This document shows, one piece after another, positions 1-39,005 of a stretch of 64,000 bases of DNA (position 1 is the stretch's first letter; each line of letters begins with the position of its first letter). Made by a program: the position numbers and the translations under genes. This DNA is from an uncultured Gemmatimonadota bacterium. Lineage in GTDB: Bacteria > JAAXHH01. The DNA lies in contig OX638340.1 in NCBI GenBank assembly GCA_951812955.1, positions 3,520,001 through 3,584,000 of the forward strand, written 5' to 3'. The notes beneath the pieces were generated by a model. That model ran no database searches. It was given only the letters and a program-made list of their open reading frames with translations, and was not told the origin of the DNA.

Positions 1-2
1 TT

Positions 3-524
3 ATGATGTGGTCGGTTGTTGGCTGCGCGGAGACTGCGCAGGACGCATCGTCGGATCCGCAGGAGGCTCCTCAGCCGCCCGCGATGTCCGCGGTGCCGGA
101 TGTGCCTGAGGCGGCATCGCCACCGGCCATGCCTTCGCACGAGCCGGTCTACCTCACCTCGGAGGCCACGGAGAGCATGAACCTGCCCTTTTCGGATGCC
201 GTGCGCACGGGGCACCTGCTGTTCCTCTCCGGCCAGATCGGAATGGTACCCGAAACGAAGGAACTGGCGCCGGGGGGCATACAGGCAGAGGCCCGTCAGA
301 CCATGGAAAACATAAAGACGGTGCTCGAGGCCAACGGATCCTCCATGGACCGGGTGATCAAGGCGACGGTCATGCTCGCGGACATCTCCGAGTGGCCGGC
401 ATTCAACGAGGTGTACGTCACGTACTTTCCCGGCCACAAGCCGGCCCGCAGCGCCTTCGCCGGCAGCGGACTGGCCTTCGGCGCGCGGTGCGAAGTCGAG
501 GTGATCGCCACGGTGGGAGAGTAG
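3..524 (+). CDS. RidA/YjgF-family protein (reactive intermediate deaminase fold); N-terminal Pro/Ala-rich extension, ORF open to the window edge
   Basis: C-terminal ~125 aa (NLPFSDAVRTGHLLFLSGQIG...ARSAFAGSGLAFGARCEVEVIA) matches the YjgF/RidA family. No stop codon lies upstream inside the window. Confidence 0.7.
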   Translation: MMWSVVGCAETAQDASSDPQEAPQPPAMSAVPDVPEAASPPAMPSHEPVYLTSEATESMNLPFSDAVRTGHLLFLSGQIGMVPETKELAPGGIQAEARQTMENIKTVLEANGSSMDRVIKATVMLADISEWPAFNEVYVTYFPGHKPARSAFAGSGLAFGARCEVEVIATVGE

Positions 525-525
525 G

Positions 526-555
526 AAAGATCAATAGCCATGGCCAAAGGAAAGT
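526..555. repeat. 30-bp perfect direct repeat, copy 1 (aaagatcaatagccatggccaaaggaaagt)
   Basis: Identical to 941..970. Contains an RBS-like AAGG and an ATG that starts only a 15-codon stub (MAKGKCGCLPPLCDY*). Confidence 0.9.
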
Positions 556-715
556 GTGGATGTTTGCCACCTCTCTGTGATTATTGATTCAGTTAAATGA
601 TCGTTGAGTGATTCGAGAAAACCACCAATGCGCCGACTAATCATAAACACACATCACTCGTTTCCGGATGGCAATTGGCTAAGCCATATCCAATCTCATC
701 ACCGGGCTCGGCGAA

Positions 716-952
716 TTGGAACTGATCGAATTCCTATCATCGTTTTTAAATATCGTGAAAGATGCCGTTCAGGCTGGAAAGGCGGTGTATGATATGTCAA
801 AATCAGGAAAGAAATCCGCACCCAACGAATCGGAACTCGACCGGGAATACAAGTCACTGATGGACGACCATAGGCGGGTACTGCGCAAGATCGAACGCAT
901 CGTCGACGCGAAGGCGAAAGAGCAAGGTATCTCTTTCAATAAAGATCAATAG
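716..952 (+). CDS. hypothetical small alpha-helical protein encoded inside the low-GC insertion (TTG start in the ORF track; an in-frame ATG lies at 794)
   Basis: Only ORF in the 415-bp AT-rich insert. Its stop TAG lies inside repeat copy 2. No recognisable family. Confidence 0.3.
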   Translation: MELIEFLSSFLNIVKDAVQAGKAVYDMSKSGKKSAPNESELDREYKSLMDDHRRVLRKIERIVDAKAKEQGISFNKDQ

Positions 953-970
953 CCATGGCCAAAGGAAAGT
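941..970. repeat. 30-bp perfect direct repeat, copy 2
   Basis: Identical to 526..555. Here its ATG (955) begins the intact YkgJ-like CDS. Confidence 0.9.
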
Positions 971-1419
971 ACTGGCACGACGGATTGCAGTTCTCCTGTC
1001 AGGGATGCGGCCACTGCTGCACCTTCCCGGGTGGATTCGTATACGGCAGCGAGAAGGAGTTCCGGCGCATTGCCGAGTACCTGGACCTGCCGTTCGAGAC
1101 CTTCCTGGAACGGTACACGGAAGAAATCGACGGCCATGTCTCCCTGGTGTCCCCGGATAACGGTCCCTGCGTCTTCTATGACGGGGAATGTACCATCTAT
1201 CCGGTGCGTCCGTCCCAGTGCAGCAGCTATCCCTTCTGGCAGGATATCCTGAAGTCGAAACGCCGGTGGGAACGGGAAGCGGAGACGTGCAGGGGCATGG
1301 AAAAGGGGAAGCGCTGGACGCGCAAGGAGATCGAGGTGGAAGCGGCAAGCCGGACGGAGAACCTGATGGCGGCGAAGAAGCGGCCGCAGTCCGAACCGAG
1401 GGAGGACGTACATGGATGA
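955..1419 (+). CDS. YkgJ/UPF0153-family Fe-S (CxxCxxCC) cluster protein
   Basis: CQGCGHCC motif followed by conserved C..C pairs (GPCVFYDGECTIYPVRPSQCSSYP), typical of the 'putative zinc/iron-chelating' YkgJ family. Confidence 0.7.
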   Translation: MAKGKYWHDGLQFSCQGCGHCCTFPGGFVYGSEKEFRRIAEYLDLPFETFLERYTEEIDGHVSLVSPDNGPCVFYDGECTIYPVRPSQCSSYPFWQDILKSKRRWEREAETCRGMEKGKRWTRKEIEVEAASRTENLMAAKKRPQSEPREDVHG

Positions 1420-2791
1420 GCGCATCACGGTTGGAAATGATCGCATCGACACGGTCGAAAATGATCGATTCGACGAAGAAACCGGTTCACGGCGGTTTAA
1501 TCGGCGTGGCTTTCTGAAGATCGGCGCCCTGGCCGGGGTCGCGGGCGTGGCTGCTGCGAATTGTAGCGGCCTGGACGGGTCAGGGAGTGATGCGGGAGGT
1601 GATGAAAGCGCCGCGACCGGCGTTTCTTCGGACCCGGAAGCCGTGGCGGCCGATTTGCAGCAAAATGTCTATACACGAATGCTCGGCGTACGGCCCCACA
1701 TCGGCGCGCACTCGCACCTGTCCAGCATGGGAGGTTCCCGCATGCCGCCGGAAGTCATGGAGGCGATGACCGAGGCCAACCGTTTCTTTGTGGATATGGA
1801 AGACCTGCACGTAGCCGCCGGGCGCCGTCTCGCGGAAATCGCGGGCGCCGAGGATGCCCTCGTATCATCCGGCGCCTTCGCCGCGTTGCTTGTAGGCGCG
1901 GCCGGGGTCCTTACCGGGACCGACGAGGAACGCATGGCGGTCCTGCCCCGTCCGACCTGGCCGAAGGTCGAATGCCTTTTTCAAACGCCGCACCGGTTTT
2001 TCTACGACAAGGTCTTTCAATACGCGGGCATGACCCTGGTGGAAGCAGATACCAGGCAGGCGTACGAAGAGGCCATCACGGACCGAACGGCCCTGCTCGT
2101 GGGACTGTCCTTCATCGAGCATCAGAACACGGGGCGGCCGCCGTTTCCCGCGAAGTACCGCCAGCCCACGCCGCCGGAAACGCTCATGCCGGAGGAGATC
2201 ATCGAAATCGGAAAGCGGAAGGGCGTGCCGGTCATGATCGACATGGCTTCCGACGTGCGTCCCATCAGAAACCTGAAGCGCTATATCGAGATGGGGGCCG
2301 ACCTGGTCATCGTCAGCGGCGGCAAGGCGTTGCGGGGCCCCAATTCGTCGGGCATACTGGCAGGCCGCGGAGATCTGATCGAAGCCGCGCGGATGCAGAA
2401 TGCGCCGAACAACGGCATCGGGCGGGGACTCAAGGTCGGCAAGGAGGAGATCATCGGTCTCATCGCCGCGGTGGAGCGGTTCGTCGAGATCGACGAAGAC
2501 GCAATGATCGCAGGTTGGAACCAGAAGGCCCAGTGGCTGGCGGACCAGCTCCAGGATATCTCCGGACTCGAAGCCAGTTACGAGATCAATACGGCCGGGT
2601 ATGCCGACGTGGAACTGATCTGGGACCAGGAGGTCATTCCCCTTTCCCGGGAAGACGTCGACAGCGCGCTTAAGGATGGGACTCCGAGCATCATCTACTA
2701 CGGGGAAGGTATCTGCACCAAGCAGTTCGAAGACGGCGAGGAGGTCCTCGTCGCCAATCGCCTACGGGAACTCTTTACGCAGGGTAGCTGA
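1412..2791 (+). CDS. SelA-like / DgaE-like PLP-dependent enzyme with an N-terminal twin-arginine (Tat) signal
   Basis: RRGFLKIGALAG Tat motif. SGGKALRGP PLP-lysine motif as in L-seryl-tRNA(Sec) selenium transferase-like proteins. ATG preceded by GGAGGA. Overlaps the previous stop by 8 nt. Confidence 0.6.
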   Translation: MDERITVGNDRIDTVENDRFDEETGSRRFNRRGFLKIGALAGVAGVAAANCSGLDGSGSDAGGDESAATGVSSDPEAVAADLQQNVYTRMLGVRPHIGAHSHLSSMGGSRMPPEVMEAMTEANRFFVDMEDLHVAAGRRLAEIAGAEDALVSSGAFAALLVGAAGVLTGTDEERMAVLPRPTWPKVECLFQTPHRFFYDKVFQYAGMTLVEADTRQAYEEAITDRTALLVGLSFIEHQNTGRPPFPAKYRQPTPPETLMPEEIIEIGKRKGVPVMIDMASDVRPIRNLKRYIEMGADLVIVSGGKALRGPNSSGILAGRGDLIEAARMQNAPNNGIGRGLKVGKEEIIGLIAAVERFVEIDEDAMIAGWNQKAQWLADQLQDISGLEASYEINTAGYADVELIWDQEVIPLSREDVDSALKDGTPSIIYYGEGICTKQFEDGEEVLVANRLRELFTQGS

Positions 2792-2805
2792 CGGAAAGGG
2801 CGTAA

Positions 2806-4014
2806 ATGGCTGATGATCGACCTGACAGTGCAGGATCCGACTTCGACGGCTCCGGCGGCGAACGCCTGACTTATGAAAGTTCCGGTGTGGATTACGACCG
2901 GATAGATCCGCTGAAGGTCCTCGCCCAGCGCGCGGCGCGGGACACGGGGGCCAACCTCGACGGCGCGGGCGCCCGCGAGGTGGCGGCCAGCCGTGGGGAG
3001 TCGGCGTACGTGGTGGACATCGGCGACGCCTATCTCGCCTCCATCACCGAATGCCTGGGTACCAAGGCCCTGGTGGCGGACGCGATGTGTGAGGCGTCGA
3101 GTGTATTGAGGGCGTCAGAGGAGTCGGAGGAGTCAAAGGCGTCGGAGGCGTCGCGAAGGACCTGGTACGACCACATCGCACAGGACACCATCGCCACGGC
3201 CGTCAACGACATTGTCACCGTGGGCGCCCGGCCCCTGAGCATCCACGCCTACTGGGCGGCCGGTTCGTCGGACTGGTTCGACGACGTGGAACGCATGAAC
3301 GACCTGGTCGAGGGATGGAAGGCGGCCTGCGACGTCCTGGGCGTGGCCTGGGGCGGCGGCGAGACGCCGTGCCTGACGGGCGTGGTGGAGGAAGGCGCCA
3401 TCGACCTGGCCGCGTCCTGCGTGGGCATCATCCGGCCTAAATCACGCCTCACCCTGGGCGAAGACCTCAGCGCCGGGGACGCGATCATTCTCCTGGAAAG
3501 CAGTGGCATTCACGCCAACGGCCTCACCCTCGCGCGCAAGCTGTCCGAACGGCTGCCGGAGGGCTATGCCACCCTCCTGCCCGGCGGCCGGACGTACGGC
3601 GTGGCGCTGCTCGACCCGACCGTGCTCTACCCTCCCGTTACCGAAGCGGCCTTCGCGGCCGGTATCGACCTGCGCTACATCGCCAACATCACCGGCCACG
3701 GATGGCGCAAGATCATGCGACACCCCGGCAGGTTTACCTACCGCATTACCGAAGTGCCCCCCGTTCCCGAGGTGCTGAAGTTCATGGTGGATGAGACCCA
3801 ACAGACCGCGGAAGAAGCCTATGGCAGCCTCAACATGGGCGCCGGCTTCGCCCTCTTCGTCCGCCCGGAAGACGGGGACGCGGCCGTGGCGTGCGCCGAG
3901 ACCGAAGGCATCCGCGCTTGGGTCGCCGGCGTGGTGGAAGATGGCCCCCGCCAGGTGGTCATCGAGCCGCTGGGCGTTACGCTCGCCGGGGAAAGCCTCG
4001 CCCTGCGGGACTGA
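2806..4014 (+). CDS. PurM-superfamily (AIR-synthase-related) ATP-binding protein
   Basis: ITECLGTKALVAD and AVNDIVTVGARPL...WGGGETPCLTGV match the PurM N/C-domain signatures. Internal acidic low-complexity insert SEESEESKASEAS. The last 15 nt are repeated at 18245. Confidence 0.6.
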   Translation: MADDRPDSAGSDFDGSGGERLTYESSGVDYDRIDPLKVLAQRAARDTGANLDGAGAREVAASRGESAYVVDIGDAYLASITECLGTKALVADAMCEASSVLRASEESEESKASEASRRTWYDHIAQDTIATAVNDIVTVGARPLSIHAYWAAGSSDWFDDVERMNDLVEGWKAACDVLGVAWGGGETPCLTGVVEEGAIDLAASCVGIIRPKSRLTLGEDLSAGDAIILLESSGIHANGLTLARKLSERLPEGYATLLPGGRTYGVALLDPTVLYPPVTEAAFAAGIDLRYIANITGHGWRKIMRHPGRFTYRITEVPPVPEVLKFMVDETQQTAEEAYGSLNMGAGFALFVRPEDGDAAVACAETEGIRAWVAGVVEDGPRQVVIEPLGVTLAGESLALRD

Positions 4015-4089
4015 GCCGCGGGCTGACTTCTCTGGTCGAATCCTCTATTCTCTACGATTCTATAATCCAGCGTAACTCAGTGCTTTTAA

Positions 4090-4400
4090 CCATACGGAAC
4101 CGCTGATCGACTCGGTTGTTCGGTCGAGAGGTATCGTTTGAGTCCGTTGAACGTACGATCACGTTGAAAATGGTGTCGCTCTGGATGCTTACGAGACTGT
4201 TTTCGACCTTGAACGAGTCTGGAACGAGCCGCTTTGCCCTTCGTCCGCATAGGCCTTGTCACCGTAGATCGCCTTCCCTGGACGGTCAGTTTTATTGACG
4301 CGGACTTCGCGGGGCATTGACACCTGCCTGGGTTGACCTTGTCGAAAGCCCGGATCTGCCACGAATCCCGCTTTACTACCGTCAGTAAGACTTAGTACCC
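4090..4400 (+). pseudogene. decayed IS3-family transposase (integrase-core) remnant, copy A
   Basis: About 75% nucleotide identity over about 100 bp to 8590..8690. Residual translation ...MVSLWMLTRLFSTLNESG resembles the RGNCWDNAVAESFFSTLK region of IS3 OrfB. Lower GC than the flanks. Confidence 0.45.
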
Positions 4401-4643
4401 CCTCCCCTAATATACTGTACGCGCCCTATCCGTTTGTTTACAATATAATCATATTTAATTCTTATAATTTCACATTTAAGCCACGAGTTATTGATCTTAG
4501 ATTTGATAAGTTAAGACTCCAGCGTTAGTATTATGTTGAAAAATCCAGTTTGATTCACATATTGAATTTATCAATCTCTGAAACAACTGACCCGTTCGTT
4601 TGTGAATACAGGGGCAGCATTTTCTTCCAAAGAATGTACCTCG
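4400..4643 (+). promoter_or_regulatory. AT-rich putative promoter/leader region upstream of LRR lipoprotein 1
   Basis: GC drops sharply (tttacaatataatcatatttaattcttataatttcacattt...). No ORF. Lies immediately 5' of a large gene. Confidence 0.3.
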
Positions 4644-6980
4644 ATGACTTTCGAGTTCCGACTTACGTCACGGCGTTTGGGACGCTTCCTCGTCCTGCTG
4701 CTCGCCTGCCTTGCCCTTCCTTTGCTCGTCACGTGCGGCAGGGACACTCCCACGCAGTCACGGACCGCGGTCCCGGCGCGGGTAGTGGTCACGCCTGTGG
4801 CCACGGATCTGGCATCGGCAGGACAGACTGTGCGACTCAACGCCCGGGCGCTTGACGACGCCGGCCAAGAAGTCTCGGAGGCTCCTGTTGCCTGGCGCAG
4901 CACCGACGCGTCGGTGGCGCGCGTGAGCGCGGACGGCGTGGTCACCGCCGTGGGGGAAGGCAGCGCCCTCATAACGGCCATGGCCGGCCAGAAGACGGCT
5001 CAAGCGAAGGTGACGGTGGCGGACCCGGTGCGCGCGGCGCTGCGGGCGCTGTACGAGGCGACGGGCGGGGCGAACTGGAAGAACAGCGACAACTGGCTGA
5101 GCGCCCGGCCCGTTGGCGATTGGTACGGGGTAATCGGCGAGCCATCCGGACCGAGCGGGATTTCGCAACGGAGAACCAGCGCCGGCGGACTGACGCGCCT
5201 GGACCTGTCCGGCAACGGATTGACGGGCGAGATCCCTCCCGTGCTGGGCAGCCTGGCCGGTCTTCGTTATCTGGACCTTTCCGACAACGCGCTGTCCGGC
5301 GCGATCCCTCCTGCGCTGGGCAACCTGTCGTCCCTCGAGACGCTGAAGCTGCACGATAACCGGTTGTCGGGCGAGATCCCTTCGGAACTGGGCAACCTGG
5401 AAAGTCTCCGGGAGCTGTCTCTGCACGGCAACGGGCAACTGACCGGTGCGTTGCCCCTTTCGCTCGCCAACCTGGACCGTCTGGAAACGTTATCCCTTTC
5501 GGGTACGCAGTTGTGCGCGCCGACCGATGCCGCGTTTCAGAACTGGCTGCAAGGAATCGCGAACAGGACCGGCATCTTCAATTGCGGCAACGATACGGAC
5601 GGCGACCGGAACGTGCTGCTCGCCCTGTACAACGCGACGGACGGTCCCAACTGGACGACCCGTACGAACTGGCTGAGCACCCGTCCCCTGTCGTCCTGGC
5701 ACGGGGTGGGCGTGAACGCCGCAGGGCGCGTCGACAGCCTGATCCTCGAAGACAACGCGCTGGCCGGACCGATCCCCGCCAGCCTGGGCAGTCTCGCCGG
5801 CCTCGTGGCGCTGGACGCGAGTGGCAACCAGTTGTCCGGCAGCATCCCGGAGGAGCTGGGCGATCTCTCCGGTCTGGTTACGCTTGATCTCAGCAACAAC
5901 GCGTTGACCGGACCGATCCCGCCGGCGTTGTTCAGCCTGCCCAATCTCGTTACGCTGGAGCTCTCCGGCAATCGGTTTACGGATATCCCGGATACAGACA
6001 TCCCGGATACAGGCACCCCGGTCCTGACGGATCGGGATGTGCTGGTTGCGCTCTACAACGCCACGGACGGCGAGAACTGGACGAACAACACCAACTGGCT
6101 GAGCGACAGGCCGCTAGGGGAATGGCACGGGGTTCGCGTCAATGCGGAGGGGCGCGTCGAAGGACTGGACCTTAGCGCTAACCAGCTATCGGGCCCGATC
6201 CCGACCGAACTCGCAAGCCTCACCAAGTTGACACATCTGTATCTTTACGATAACCAGCTATCGGGCCCGATCCCGGCAGAAATCGCAAGCCTCACCAATT
6301 TGACAGAGCTGGACCTTAGCGAGAACCAGCTATCTGGCCCGATCCCGTCCGAACTCGGCAGCCTCACCAAGTTGGAAGATCTGTGGCTTTTCGGTAATCA
6401 GCTATCGGGTCCCCTGCCCGGAACGTTCACCGGTCTGACAAACTTGGAAAGACTGTCCATCGAAGGAACCGGGTTGTGCGCGCCGACGGACGCGGCCTTC
6501 CAGGCGTGGTTGAGGGGAGTCGATGACAAATCTGGAGTGGTCAACTGTGCCGGCTCAAGCCCAGACCTGATCGTCGCATCGCCATCGGTAAGCGACGACA
6601 CCCTGACGACGGGGCAGTCTTTCACGCTGAGCGCGTCGGTGCGCAACCAGGGCACGGGGCGGTCAGCCTCGACGATCCTGCGCTATTACCGGTCTTCGAA
6701 TTCGACCATCTCATCGTCCGATACGCAGGTCGGCACGGACGCCGTGAGCGCACTGGCCGCATCGGGAACGAGCGCTGAATCGATCAGCCTGTCCGCGCCT
6801 TCGAGCGTCGGGACGTACTACTACGGCGCGTGCGTGGACGAGGTAAGCGGCGAGAGCGATACGGGCAACAACTGCTCTACGGGCGTGCGCGTCACGGTGA
6901 TGGTCGAGGATGACCACGGCGATACTCGGTCTGGAGCGACATCCCCTCGCGCTGAGCGGTTCGGTCTCGGGACGGATTGA
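4644..6980 (+). CDS. LRR lipoprotein 1: lipobox signal, Big_2 domain, three plant-type LRR supermodules, CARDB domain; reading frame broken near 6943
   Basis: Signal and lipobox LLVTCG. Big_2 (VVVTPVATDL...AKVTV). N-caps LYxATxGxNWxxxxNWLSxRPxxxWxGV. 24-aa LRRs LxxLxxLxLxxNxLSGxIPxxLG. C-caps GTQLCAPTDAAFQNWL. CARDB (PDLIVASPSV...GTYYYGACVDE...NNCS). Confidence 0.75.
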   Translation: MTFEFRLTSRRLGRFLVLLLACLALPLLVTCGRDTPTQSRTAVPARVVVTPVATDLASAGQTVRLNARALDDAGQEVSEAPVAWRSTDASVARVSADGVVTAVGEGSALITAMAGQKTAQAKVTVADPVRAALRALYEATGGANWKNSDNWLSARPVGDWYGVIGEPSGPSGISQRRTSAGGLTRLDLSGNGLTGEIPPVLGSLAGLRYLDLSDNALSGAIPPALGNLSSLETLKLHDNRLSGEIPSELGNLESLRELSLHGNGQLTGALPLSLANLDRLETLSLSGTQLCAPTDAAFQNWLQGIANRTGIFNCGNDTDGDRNVLLALYNATDGPNWTTRTNWLSTRPLSSWHGVGVNAAGRVDSLILEDNALAGPIPASLGSLAGLVALDASGNQLSGSIPEELGDLSGLVTLDLSNNALTGPIPPALFSLPNLVTLELSGNRFTDIPDTDIPDTGTPVLTDRDVLVALYNATDGENWTNNTNWLSDRPLGEWHGVRVNAEGRVEGLDLSANQLSGPIPTELASLTKLTHLYLYDNQLSGPIPAEIASLTNLTELDLSENQLSGPIPSELGSLTKLEDLWLFGNQLSGPLPGTFTGLTNLERLSIEGTGLCAPTDAAFQAWLRGVDDKSGVVNCAGSSPDLIVASPSVSDDTLTTGQSFTLSASVRNQGTGRSASTILRYYRSSNSTISSSDTQVGTDAVSALAASGTSAESISLSAPSSVGTYYYGACVDEVSGESDTGNNCSTGVRVTVMVEDDHGDTRSGATSPRAERFGLGTD

Positions 6981-38838: not shown

Positions 38839-38865
38839 CATGCGCGTACCGTCGGGCGACGCCAT

Positions 38866-39005
38866 TCGGTCGCCCTTGCGCCGCCGGTCACCCAGGCGCC
38901 GCCTTTCGGTCGATCTGGCACCGCGTTCTGGTCGATCTGGCGCCGCGTTCCGGTCGTCCTTGCGCTGCCTTTCGGTCGATCTGGCGCCGCGTTCCGGTCG
39001 TCGAC
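38866..39005. repeat. intergenic tandem repeats (unit ~ggtcgatctggcRccgcgttcYggtcg, 3-4 copies)
   Basis: Direct reading. Between hisC-like and the class-III aminotransferase. Confidence 0.75.

What the first reader, a model, noticed from the sequence alone, without database searches (positions are those of the whole stretch)
526..970. 415-bp low-GC insertion bounded by perfect 30-bp direct repeats that duplicate the RBS and start of the YkgJ-like gene
aaagatcaatagccatggccaaaggaaagt occurs at 526..555 and 941..970. The first copy yields only a 15-codon stub (MAKGKCGCLPPLCDY*). The second begins the intact gene. The intervening DNA is about 45% GC, against about 65% in the flanks. It encodes a 78-aa helical ORF whose stop codon sits inside the repeat. 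A 30-bp duplication is far too long for a standard transposon target-site duplication. The arrangement looks like site-specific or homology-mediated insertion of a small foreign cassette, possibly a miniature addiction or regulatory module, between ridA and the downstream operon.
Basis: seen in the sequence. Interest (0 to 1): 0.55.

Follow-up and report, generated by a model that had tools for sequence, protein, structure and literature searches.

The report
Tandem-duplication junction around a small gene
The perfect 30-base repeat is real, but it marks the unit boundary of a small resident gene that is duplicated and deleted in tandem among related sponge- and coral-associated bacteria; it is not the footprint of a recently inserted foreign cassette, so the finding is an ordinary kind of genome dynamics.

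Summary
Observation confirmed. A perfect 30-nt direct repeat (R) lies at 526-555 and 941-970. It brackets 385 nt of 46.5% GC DNA that encodes a 78-aa helical ORF (S).

Interpretation mostly wrong. S is a real gene under purifying selection. In every genome or metagenome locus I could fetch (19 loci), an S copy or remnant lies in the ridA-ykgJ spacer. One of these loci, L020, keeps its intact copy just upstream of ridA. S has no hits in phage, plasmid or viral collections, and no recombinase gene lies nearby. Its low GC is the same in every species sampled, so it does not signal recent transfer.

More distant relatives have ridA directly abutting ykgJ. S was therefore gained once, long ago.

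The upstream R copy exists only in the window's own clade. There the 415-436-nt unit (R + leader + S) is copy-number variable:
- R-D-R in the window and L001.
- R-D-R-D-R in L002.
- Truncated and recombinationally collapsed forms elsewhere.
- Clean one-unit indels between near-identical relatives.

A separate lineage (L020) carries an independent duplication ending at a different point in ykgJ.

R is best read as the junction of a homologous-recombination-prone tandem duplication. How the leftmost R first arose is unresolved. Interest is low to moderate.

The parts
3..524 (+). ridA (Rid family deaminase gene; its 5' end is at the window edge)
   Evidence: PF01042 E 6.7e-30; TIGR00004 above its cut-off; stop TAG at 522-524.
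526..555 (+). R-left: upstream copy of the 30-nt unit-junction repeat. It consists of the last 3 codons and stop of S, a CC spacer, and the first 16 nt of ykgJ.
   Evidence: Demonstrable only in the window's clade.
540..587 (+). 15-codon stub ORF started by the duplicated ykgJ start codon; probably a by-product
   Evidence: No conserved ORF at this position in L013 or L005, and the stop is lost in L002 unit 2.
556..715 (+). Non-coding leader of the unit. It includes a conserved core at 599-641 (...CCAATGCGCCGACTAAT) and invariant complementary hexamers at 631-636 and 708-713.
   Evidence: No codon periodicity, 29/26/25. Homologous to the leaders of L004 and L013, and deleted in L005-L008, L003 unit 1, L010 and L021. 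No Rfam hit, no promoter or terminator match, fold z -0.10, covariation term +1.25.
716..952 (+). S: clade-specific small helical-hairpin protein gene. It is 78 aa from TTG 716. The invariant ATG at 794, with GGAAAGGCGG upstream, gives a 52-aa core.
   Evidence: 17 homologues. Only 4 clusters among 1.84e9 representative proteins. dN/dS 0.07-0.67 across all core pairs, mostly below 0.3. Third-position variability 40 against 17 and 16 in the core, and 16 against 9 and 8 in the extension. AF2 model. M27 invariant.
941..970 (+). R-right: the native junction, made of the S stop codon, 2 nt, and the ykgJ start
   Evidence: The same junction sequence is conserved in most of the S-bearing loci examined; L006 instead has a roughly 57-nt spacer between the S stop and the ykgJ start.
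955..1419 (+). ykgJ-type CxxCxxCC cysteine-cluster protein gene, 2 nt downstream of the S stop codon
   Evidence: PF03692 E 2.4e-12; homologues.
1412..2791 (+). DgaE/SelA-related PLP-dependent enzyme gene with a weak (sub-threshold) twin-arginine signal match; same operon
   Evidence: PF03841 and PF00266; TIGR01437 selA_rel 1.8e-45, below its cut-off.
2806..4014 (+). AIR-synthase-related (PurM-like) protein gene; the last syntenic gene of the block
   Evidence: PF00586 and PF02769; TIGR00878 1.5e-46, below its cut-off; synteny.

Best explanation
The segment is a resident, vertically inherited locus. It holds a small gene (S) specific to one clade of sponge- and coral-associated bacteria (records are titled Gemmatimonadetes or Ca. 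Latescibacterota). S lies between ridA and ykgJ, and its stop codon sits 2 nt before the ykgJ start.

In the window's own sub-clade, the 415-436-nt unit (30-nt R + leader + S) behaves as a tandem repeat whose unit boundary is R. R is made of the last codons of S plus the first 16 nt of ykgJ. The window shows the one-unit state R-D-R, that is 1.07 copies of the repeat. Sister genomes show R-D-R-D-R, a 5'-truncated two-unit array, and single chimeric units.

Unequal homologous recombination between units or between R copies adds or removes exactly one unit. Illegitimate deletions next to the ridA stop codon trim the left side.

Shown: the repeat, the coding status of S, the fixed locus, the absence of S from outgroups, the array states, the one-unit indels, and the chimeric and mosaic units.

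Inferred: (1) RecA-type recombination is the agent. (2) R-left is the 30-nt stump of a former upstream unit; I put about 50% on this, and the step is unresolved. (3) S is translated from ATG 794 and/or TTG 716, and ykgJ translation is coupled to S termination. (4) The 15-codon stub is a by-product.
For: - Repeat and anatomy.
- S is a real gene. It has 17 homologues. Core dN/dS is 0.07-0.67 across all pairs, mostly below 0.3. Third-codon-position variability is 40 against 17 and 16. It is predicted as a helical hairpin.
- Fixed locus. All 19 S-bearing loci (L001-L014 and L020-L022, plus the window) have S or a remnant of it in the ridA-ykgJ spacer. L020 keeps its intact copy upstream of ridA. 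These loci are followed by the DgaE/SelA-like and AIRS genes wherever the contig extends far enough. Each genome in the scan gave one locus, including the two records titled as chromosomes.
- Outgroups L015, L016 and L018 have ridA directly adjacent to ykgJ, with spacers of 63 nt and 122 nt and a TGATG overlap respectively.
- Array states. L001 has the same perfect R pair at 415 nt. L002 has two units of 415 and 436 nt that are 88-92% identical. L003, L009 and L012 have a truncated unit, a 36-nt perfect R, and a full unit.
- Clean one-unit indels. L003 against L010 differs by a 435-nt gap, with flanks 292/297 and 659/669 identical. L002 against the window differs by a 436-nt gap.
- L010 carries the left junction of L003 unit 1 fused to the body of unit 2. 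L021 is an A/B mosaic.
- The L002 paralogues have dS 0.42 and dN/dS 0.25, so both copies are maintained.
- Independent event in L020. A 46-nt copy of the S end plus ykgJ codons 1-11 lies upstream of ridA, 1576 nt from the native copy and 93% identical to it. Its endpoint differs from the window's.
- Low GC (0.48-0.50; GC3 about 0.6 against 0.7-0.9 in flanking genes) is constant in all five species measured.
Against: - A simple tandem duplication of leader+S+R does not by itself create the leftmost R. An extra step is needed (deletion, conversion or template switch), and I could not reconstruct it.
- R is 30 nt. That is below the 35 bp at 92% identity or better that the Tandem tool requires for an HR call. 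R x R exchange is therefore plausible but unproven. The documented collapses (L010, and the window against L002) could equally have occurred inside the roughly 400-nt unit bodies.
- No 'empty' R-only allele (ridA-R-ykgJ), which would be the reciprocal product of R x R exchange, was seen in this small sample.
- Unit order differs between L002 (A-B) and L003 (truncated B, then A), which requires several events.
- The function of S is unknown, and no expression data were available.
Confidence: 0.78

Rival explanations
1. Ancient insertion with a long target duplication. When S was first acquired between ridA and ykgJ, about 20-30 nt of the ykgJ start region were duplicated. R-left would be that footprint, decayed or deleted in other lineages and kept identical in the window's clade by gene conversion.
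For: Outgroups lack S and have ridA tightly joined to ykgJ. The first bases after the ridA stop in the single-unit lineages show weak similarity to the ykgJ start: L004 AATGGAATGTA against AAAGGAAAGTA, p 0.065; L013 GGAAAGT, p 0.079; L005, p 0.045.
Against: None of those similarities is significant on its own, and they are not independent of each other. R-left is 100% identical to R-right although the lineages differ by dS 0.6-0.9, so recent homogenisation would have to be assumed as well. L020 shows that repeats of this kind arise by later segmental duplication with a different endpoint. No element-like ends and no second locus were found.
Confidence: 0.1
2. Retained regulatory duplication. 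R-left is kept by selection because it places the ykgJ translation-initiation region after the ridA stop, so that ribosomes translate the Cys-rich 15-codon leader peptide and thereby tune expression of S and ykgJ.
For: R-left is perfect in the window and in L001. The few changes in the L002 R copies are synonymous or conservative in the stub or S frame: GCC>GCT, AAA>AGA, AAG>AAA, GAT>GAC, CAA>CAG. L004 has a different Cys-rich mini-ORF at the homologous place.
Against: L013 and L005 have no start codon at that place. The stop is lost in L002 unit 2. The region shows no codon periodicity. The whole leader, stub included, is deleted in L003 unit 1, L005-L008, L010 and L021 without loss of S or ykgJ. 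The stub ends 128 nt before the first possible S start codon.
Confidence: 0.07
3. Mobile or site-specific cassette (integron-like cassette, MITE, or a small integrative element with a 30-nt att core), recently inserted and possibly a toxin-antitoxin or addiction module.
For: Direct repeats flank a compositionally distinct segment that carries one small ORF. Arrays of 2 units occur in relatives.
Against: The unit is confined to the ridA-ykgJ region in 19 loci (L020's intact copy lies just upstream of ridA) and does not recur elsewhere in the 64-kb window. One search lists no inverted repeat between or within the unit ends (526-970). No integrase or transposase gene lies within the fetched flanks or in the next 14 kb of the window. 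S has no homologue in phages, plasmids or viral contigs and no TA or defence family hit. Arrays hold paralogues of one gene, not different cassettes. The unit ends differ between lineages (+16 against +32 in ykgJ). Low GC is shared by all species.
Confidence: 0.03
4. Assembly artefact: a k-mer-length (30/31) overlap that mis-joins or loops a contig.
For: 30 nt equals k-1 for k=31. Several short-read contigs break inside the unit (L011, L012, L014).
Against: The same structure occurs in independently assembled contigs with long-read-style assembler names (L001 ptg000768l; L002 ctg49580l, with two units) and in short-read MAGs from other samples (L003, L009).
Confidence: 0.02

Closest known systems
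Homologous-recombination-mediated tandem duplication and collapse between flanking direct repeats (R-D-R <-> R-D-R-D-R model; unequal sister-chromatid exchange)
   Same: There are direct repeats in the same orientation at each unit boundary. Relatives carry head-to-tail units, exact one-unit indels, and chimeric or mosaic units. The geometry is as described in bioRxiv 10.64898/2026.05.22.727201. Reversible copy-number change of this general kind has been described as bet-hedging in Burkholderia (PMC9946442, title and abstract only).
   Different: R is only 30-36 nt and was itself created by an earlier duplication or deletion, rather than being an IS, rrn or REP element. The unit is tiny (415-436 nt, one small gene). 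The variation is seen between strains and species, and has not been shown within a population.
Integron gene cassette arrays
   Same: Short, promoter-less-looking units with a single small ORF, arranged head to tail at one fixed site.
   Different: No attC-like imperfect palindrome, no intI, no attI. The units are paralogues of one gene, and the unit boundary is the start of the downstream resident gene.
Transposable elements or MITEs with target-site duplications; integrative elements with att repeats
   Same: A compositionally distinct segment is flanked by perfect direct repeats.
   Different: The repeat is 30 nt. From my own knowledge, typical TSDs are 2-14 nt. There are no terminal inverted repeats, no second copy anywhere, and no transposase or integrase. 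The repeat includes coding sequence of the 'inserted' gene itself.
Lineage-restricted (orphan) small protein genes wedged into translationally coupled operons
   Same: S is confined to one clade (4 clusters in 1.84e9 representatives). It sits between two genes that are directly coupled in outgroups, such as the TGATG overlap in L018. Its stop lies 2 nt from the next start.
   Different: This is a descriptive category, not a defined family. The origin of S (de novo or transferred) is unknown.

Membership tests
HR-mediated tandem duplication (R-D-R-D-R) | Direct repeats of the same orientation at both ends of the duplicated segment | tested here: met
   30-nt perfect repeat at 526-555 and 941-970; 36-nt perfect repeat in L003.
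HR-mediated tandem duplication (R-D-R-D-R) | Related genomes carry two or more head-to-tail units with R at every junction | tested here: met
   L002 is R-A-R-B-R, with periods of 415 and 436 nt. L003, L009 and L012 have a truncated B unit, R, an A unit, and R.
HR-mediated tandem duplication (R-D-R-D-R) | Differences between close relatives are exact multiples of the unit, with recombinant units | tested here: met
   435-nt and 436-nt single gaps within otherwise 94-98% identical alignments. L010 is chimeric and L021 is a mosaic.
HR-mediated tandem duplication (R-D-R-D-R) | Repeat long enough for RecA-type exchange, and dependence on recA | not testable with these tools
   R is 30-36 nt. The Tandem tool's HR criterion is at least 35 bp at 92% identity or better. 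recA dependence needs an experiment.
Transposon or MITE with target-site duplication | Terminal inverted repeats, multiple genomic copies, a transposase in cis or trans | tested here: not met
   No inverted repeat at the unit ends. No other copy in the window. One locus per genome. No transposase in the flanks.
Integron gene cassette | attC recombination site at the cassette end, plus a nearby intI integrase and attI | tested here: not met
   One search lists no inverted repeat within the unit or at its 3' end. The neighbouring genes are Omp85, Metallophos, ridA, ykgJ, DgaE/SelA-like, AIRS and LRR proteins.
Integrative element (att core repeats) | Site-specific recombinase, and an element of constant ends found with and without occupancy in close relatives | tested here: not met
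   No recombinase was found. The ends differ between lineages (ykgJ +16 against +32). No empty site was seen within the clade.
Toxin-antitoxin or addiction module | Two adjacent small genes with recognisable toxin or antitoxin folds or families | tested here: not met
   There is one conserved ORF only. Pfam gave only sub-threshold coiled-coil matches. NCBIfam and PADLOC gave none, and PHROGs gave one weak match at E 0.008. Foldseek against the PDB found nothing with E <= 0.001.
Cis-regulatory RNA or sRNA in the leader | A conserved secondary structure with covariation, or an Rfam match | tested here: inconclusive
   No Rfam hit in the insert. Fold z -0.10. The alifold covariation term is +1.25, with only 3 compensatory pairs in 6 closely related sequences. 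The leader is dispensable in six lineages.

The most novel reading that the evidence does not exclude
S is a young, clade-specific gene that wedged itself into the translationally coupled ridA-ykgJ junction of a symbiont lineage. The R-flanked unit then acts as a recombination-driven copy-number switch, with 0, 1 or 2 or more units within populations. That switch would tune the dosage of S and, through translational coupling, the expression of the ykgJ / DgaE-like operon. It would be a miniature, IS-free analogue of duplication-based bet-hedging.
Probability: 0.1. Interest if true: 0.5.

Novelty: new member of a known kind. Interest (0 to 1): 0.3.

Why it matters
The practical lesson is for genome scanning. 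A perfect long direct repeat around a low-GC small ORF looks like a mobile insertion, but here comparative data show the junction signature of a small tandem duplication at a resident locus.

Biologically, the locus documents an uncharacterised small helical protein confined to one clade of sponge- and coral-associated bacteria. The gene is under purifying selection. It is preserved through duplications, deletions and even a relocation (L020), which suggests it matters to the ridA-ykgJ-PLP enzyme operon.

If copy number also varies within populations, this would be a compact natural example of recombination-based dosage variation. That is not shown here.

Tried and rejected
1. The insert as a decayed duplicate of ykgJ 5' sequence. 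This was prompted by a 27-nt in-frame match in L002 (D3) and by the similarity of GGATGTTTGCCAC to GGATGCGGCCAC. Local alignment against shuffles gave p 0.03 only for the L002 B unit and p 0.3-0.96 in the window, L002 A, L004, L013 and L006. Rejected as chance.
2. A degenerate R-left in single-unit lineages. p 0.045-0.98, inconclusive.
3. An antisense ORF at 531-650(-) covering the conserved leader core. Its start codon is absent in L003, L004 and L013 (read directly), and the region has no codon periodicity. Rejected.
4. Promoter and terminator scan of 300-1500: nothing.
5. Rfam scan of 1-3000: nothing in the insert.
6. Leader RNA fold z -0.10 and weak alifold result.
7. Exact-sequence look-ups of the window's S and YkgJ proteins: not on record.
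8. Phage, plasmid and viral-contig searches for S: no match.
9. Foldseek of the S model against the PDB: no significant match.
10. Relatedness of S to the TM/coiled-coil small ORFs of other low-GC islets: none (E 2.5).
11. The NJ tree of RidA+YkgJ is too weakly resolved, and L018 is error-prone, so I could not date R-left or decide whether L018 lost S.

Full report
**Observation.** The 30-mer AAAGATCAATAGCCATGGCCAAAGGAAAGT occurs at 526-555 and 941-970. The two copies are 100% identical and lie 415 nt apart. No other copy exists in the 64-kb window even with three mismatches, and shuffles give an expectation of 0.00. The first copy opens a 15-codon stub, MAKGKCGCLPPLCDY*. The second opens an intact PF03692 (CxxCxxCC, YkgJ-type) gene at 955-1419. 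The 385 nt between the copies are 46.5% GC, against 65.5% and 62.4% in the flanks. They hold a 78-aa ORF (716-952) whose TAG stop lies inside the second repeat. The only correction is that 415 nt is the repeat period, not the size of the unique insert.

**Gene content.** The upstream gene is a Rid-family deaminase (3-524). Downstream of ykgJ are a DgaE/SelA-related PLP enzyme (1412-2791) and an AIR-synthase-related protein (2806-4014). The next genes encode LRR/Big_2 surface proteins. There is no integrase or transposase.

**The small ORF (S) is a real gene.**
- It has 17 homologues among 5.8 billion proteins. One is named by its source as from a Gemmatimonadetes MAG.
- A profile search of 1.84 billion representative proteins finds only four true clusters.
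- In the 52-aa core, variable sites by codon position are 17, 16 and 40. dN/dS is 0.07-0.67 across all pairs, mostly below 0.3.
- In the 26-codon N-terminal extension the counts are 9, 8 and 16. The leader at 556-715 shows no periodicity, at 29, 26 and 25.
- The internal Met at ATG 794 is invariant. It is preceded by the invariant sequence GCTGGAAAGGCGGTGTATGAT, which is retained even where everything further upstream is deleted (L007, L008).
- AlphaFold2 predicts a two-helix hairpin with pLDDT 78.5. It has no significant PDB neighbour.
- Pfam, PHROGs, NCBIfam and PADLOC give nothing above threshold.

**Comparative context.**
- I fetched 19 loci that carry S: L001-L014 and L020-L022, plus the window. 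They include two contigs with long-read-style assembler names, L001 and L002. Two others, L004 and L006, are records titled as chromosomes.
- In all of them S or a remnant of it lies in the ridA-ykgJ spacer, and the DgaE/SelA-like and AIRS genes follow wherever the contig extends that far. In L020 the intact copy lies just upstream of ridA.
- Record titles place these loci in Gemmatimonadetes or Ca. Latescibacterota MAGs. The isolate names suggest sponge and coral sources; that reading of the names is my own.
- Each genome yielded one locus.
- S has no match in phage, plasmid or viral collections.
- Three more distant YkgJ relatives lack S. In L015 ridA and ykgJ are 63 nt apart, in L016 122 nt apart, and in L018 the ridA TGA overlaps the ykgJ ATG.
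- The leader plus S was therefore gained at this junction in the ancestor of the clade.
- S has GC 0.48-0.50 and GC3 of about 0.6, against 0.7-0.9 in its neighbours, in all five species measured. Low GC is a stable property of the gene, not a sign of recent arrival.

**What the 30-nt repeat is.** R-right is simply the native junction: the last three codons and stop of S, then CC, then the first 16 nt of ykgJ. It is conserved in most S-bearing loci; L006 has a roughly 57-nt spacer instead. R-left is found only in the window's own sub-clade.
- The single-unit genomes L004 and L013 have a homologous full-length leader starting right after the ridA stop codon. They have no demonstrable R-left, with similarity p of 0.065-0.73.
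- L001 is 97.6% identical to the window and has the same perfect pair.
- L002 has R-A-R-B-R, with units of 415 and 436 nt that are 88-92% identical. A is the 52-aa-core type found in the window. B has a 7-aa internal duplication.
- L003, L009 and L012 have a 5'-truncated B unit, a 36-nt perfect R, a full A unit, and R.
- L010 is 98% identical to L003 in the flanks. It differs by one clean 435-nt gap and carries the left junction of L003 unit 1 fused to the body of unit 2. This is a textbook collapse by unequal homologous exchange.
- L002 differs from the window by one clean 436-nt gap.
- L021 and L022 are A/B mosaics, which indicates gene conversion.
- The A and B units in L002 differ by dS 0.42 with dN/dS 0.25. 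The duplication is therefore old and both copies are maintained.
- Short-read contigs tend to break inside the unit (L011, L012, L014).
- This is the R-D-R <-> R-D-R-D-R geometry described for HR-mediated tandem duplications (bioRxiv 10.64898/2026.05.22.727201). The window shows the one-unit state.

**An independent event.** In L020 (3.85-Mb contig ctg17301_75x_c; the 'c' suffix suggests a circular assembly), an intact S lies upstream of ridA. It is followed by a 46-nt copy of the S end plus ykgJ codons 1-11, with the ATG mutated to TTG. That copy is 93% identical to the native junction 1576 nt downstream. The native ridA-ykgJ spacer there holds only a remnant of S and two unrelated small TM/coiled-coil ORFs. 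The duplicated block ends at ykgJ +32 rather than +16. The repeat ends are therefore not fixed. That argues against a site-specific element and for repeated segmental duplication at a rearrangement-prone junction. An intact S copy survives the disruption, which suggests S is needed.

**What remains unresolved.** A plain tandem duplication of leader+S+R gives x-L-S-R-L-S-R, not R-L-S-R. I favour, at about 50%, the idea that R-left is the 30-nt stump of a former upstream unit. Several independent deletions abut the ridA stop codon (the L003 type, L005, L006, L007/L008). The alternatives are an ancient target duplication kept identical by conversion, or a template switch. I tested whether the insert is a decayed copy of ykgJ itself and rejected that idea.

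**Rivals.**
- Mobile cassette or att site, and addiction module: tested features not met (see the membership table).
- Assembly artefact: excluded by independent assemblies, including contigs with long-read-style names.
- Regulatory leader peptide or RNA. The stub ORF is not conserved outside the sub-clade. The leader folds no better than shuffles (z -0.10). There is no Rfam hit and covariation is weak. The leader is dispensable in six lineages. This rival is not excluded but is unsupported.

**Verdict.** The interpretation as a recently inserted foreign cassette bounded by a 30-bp target duplication is not supported. The feature is a new example of a well-known process: tandem duplication and collapse by homologous recombination. 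It acts on an uncharacterised, clade-restricted small gene. Interest 0.3. The most novel reading not excluded is a recombination-driven dosage switch for a young gene wedged into a coupled operon, at probability about 0.1.

Noticed in passing
window 18577-19502: A low-GC islet (GC 0.43-0.47) holds three small ORFs of 83, 79 and 97 aa, each with an N-terminal TM helix and a coiled coil. It also holds 17-nt (18865-18921) and 33-nt (19335-19457) tandem repeats. The ORFs are weakly similar (BLASTP E 1e-6 to 1e-3) to small ORFs in L001 (8459-8755), L002 (9110-9457) and L020 (3576-3812), with sub-threshold XhlA/DUF7310 hits. They are not related to S.
   Followed up: partly
L020 3428-4237: In this genome the ridA-ykgJ spacer holds two unrelated small TM/coiled-coil ORFs (78 aa with 5 x 21-nt repeats, and 87 aa) plus a 41-nt remnant of S. 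The intact S has moved upstream of ridA. The junction seems to be a hotspot for small-ORF turnover.
   Followed up: partly
window 853-874; L006 4132-4174; L002 5597-5632: Most S homologues carry an internal 21-nt (7-aa, SLMADHR/SLVSDHR) tandem duplication, which is an exact 22-nt repeat in L006. The window's copy (type A) has only one of the two repeats.
   Followed up: partly
window 631-636 and 708-713: The two most conserved leader motifs contain invariant complementary hexamers, CGCCGA and TCGGCG, 72 nt apart. The second lies just upstream of the TTG 716 start. They are identical in all six full-length leaders, so no covariation test is possible.
   Followed up: partly
window 1426-1474: A 24-nt tandem repeat (2 copies, 84% matches) sits in the 5' end of the DgaE/SelA-like gene. 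It encodes a repeated ...GNDRID/ENDRFD... motif ahead of the weak twin-arginine signal match, and it is also present in L001 and L002.
   Followed up: no
window 4602-6980, 9083-14005, 14064-18176: Three very large ORFs. Pfam assigns leucine-rich-repeat and Big_2 domains to the first two, which also contain 72-nt (24-aa) tandem repeats. The third (14064-18176) was not scanned but shows LRR-type repeats on reading its translation. From my own knowledge, proteins like these are typical of sponge symbionts.
   Followed up: no
window 4015-4600; L001 8186-8870; L002 8784-9560: Synteny with the close relatives L001 and L002 ends right after the AIRS-like gene. They carry a 98-aa or 115-aa repeat-rich small ORF there. 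The window has an AT-rich stretch (GC down to 0.41) with no such ORF, followed by an LRR gene.
   Followed up: partly
L006 4797-7607; L018 3357-6360: The DgaE/SelA-like gene is tandemly duplicated in L006 and L018. L018 lacks S but grouped with S-bearing L006 in a rough NJ tree, so either L018 lost S or the tree is unreliable.
   Followed up: no
window 38855-39002: A 22-nt unit (GGCGCCGCCTTTCGGTCGACCT) is repeated 6.8 times, overlapping a 44-nt periodicity. Not examined.
   Followed up: no
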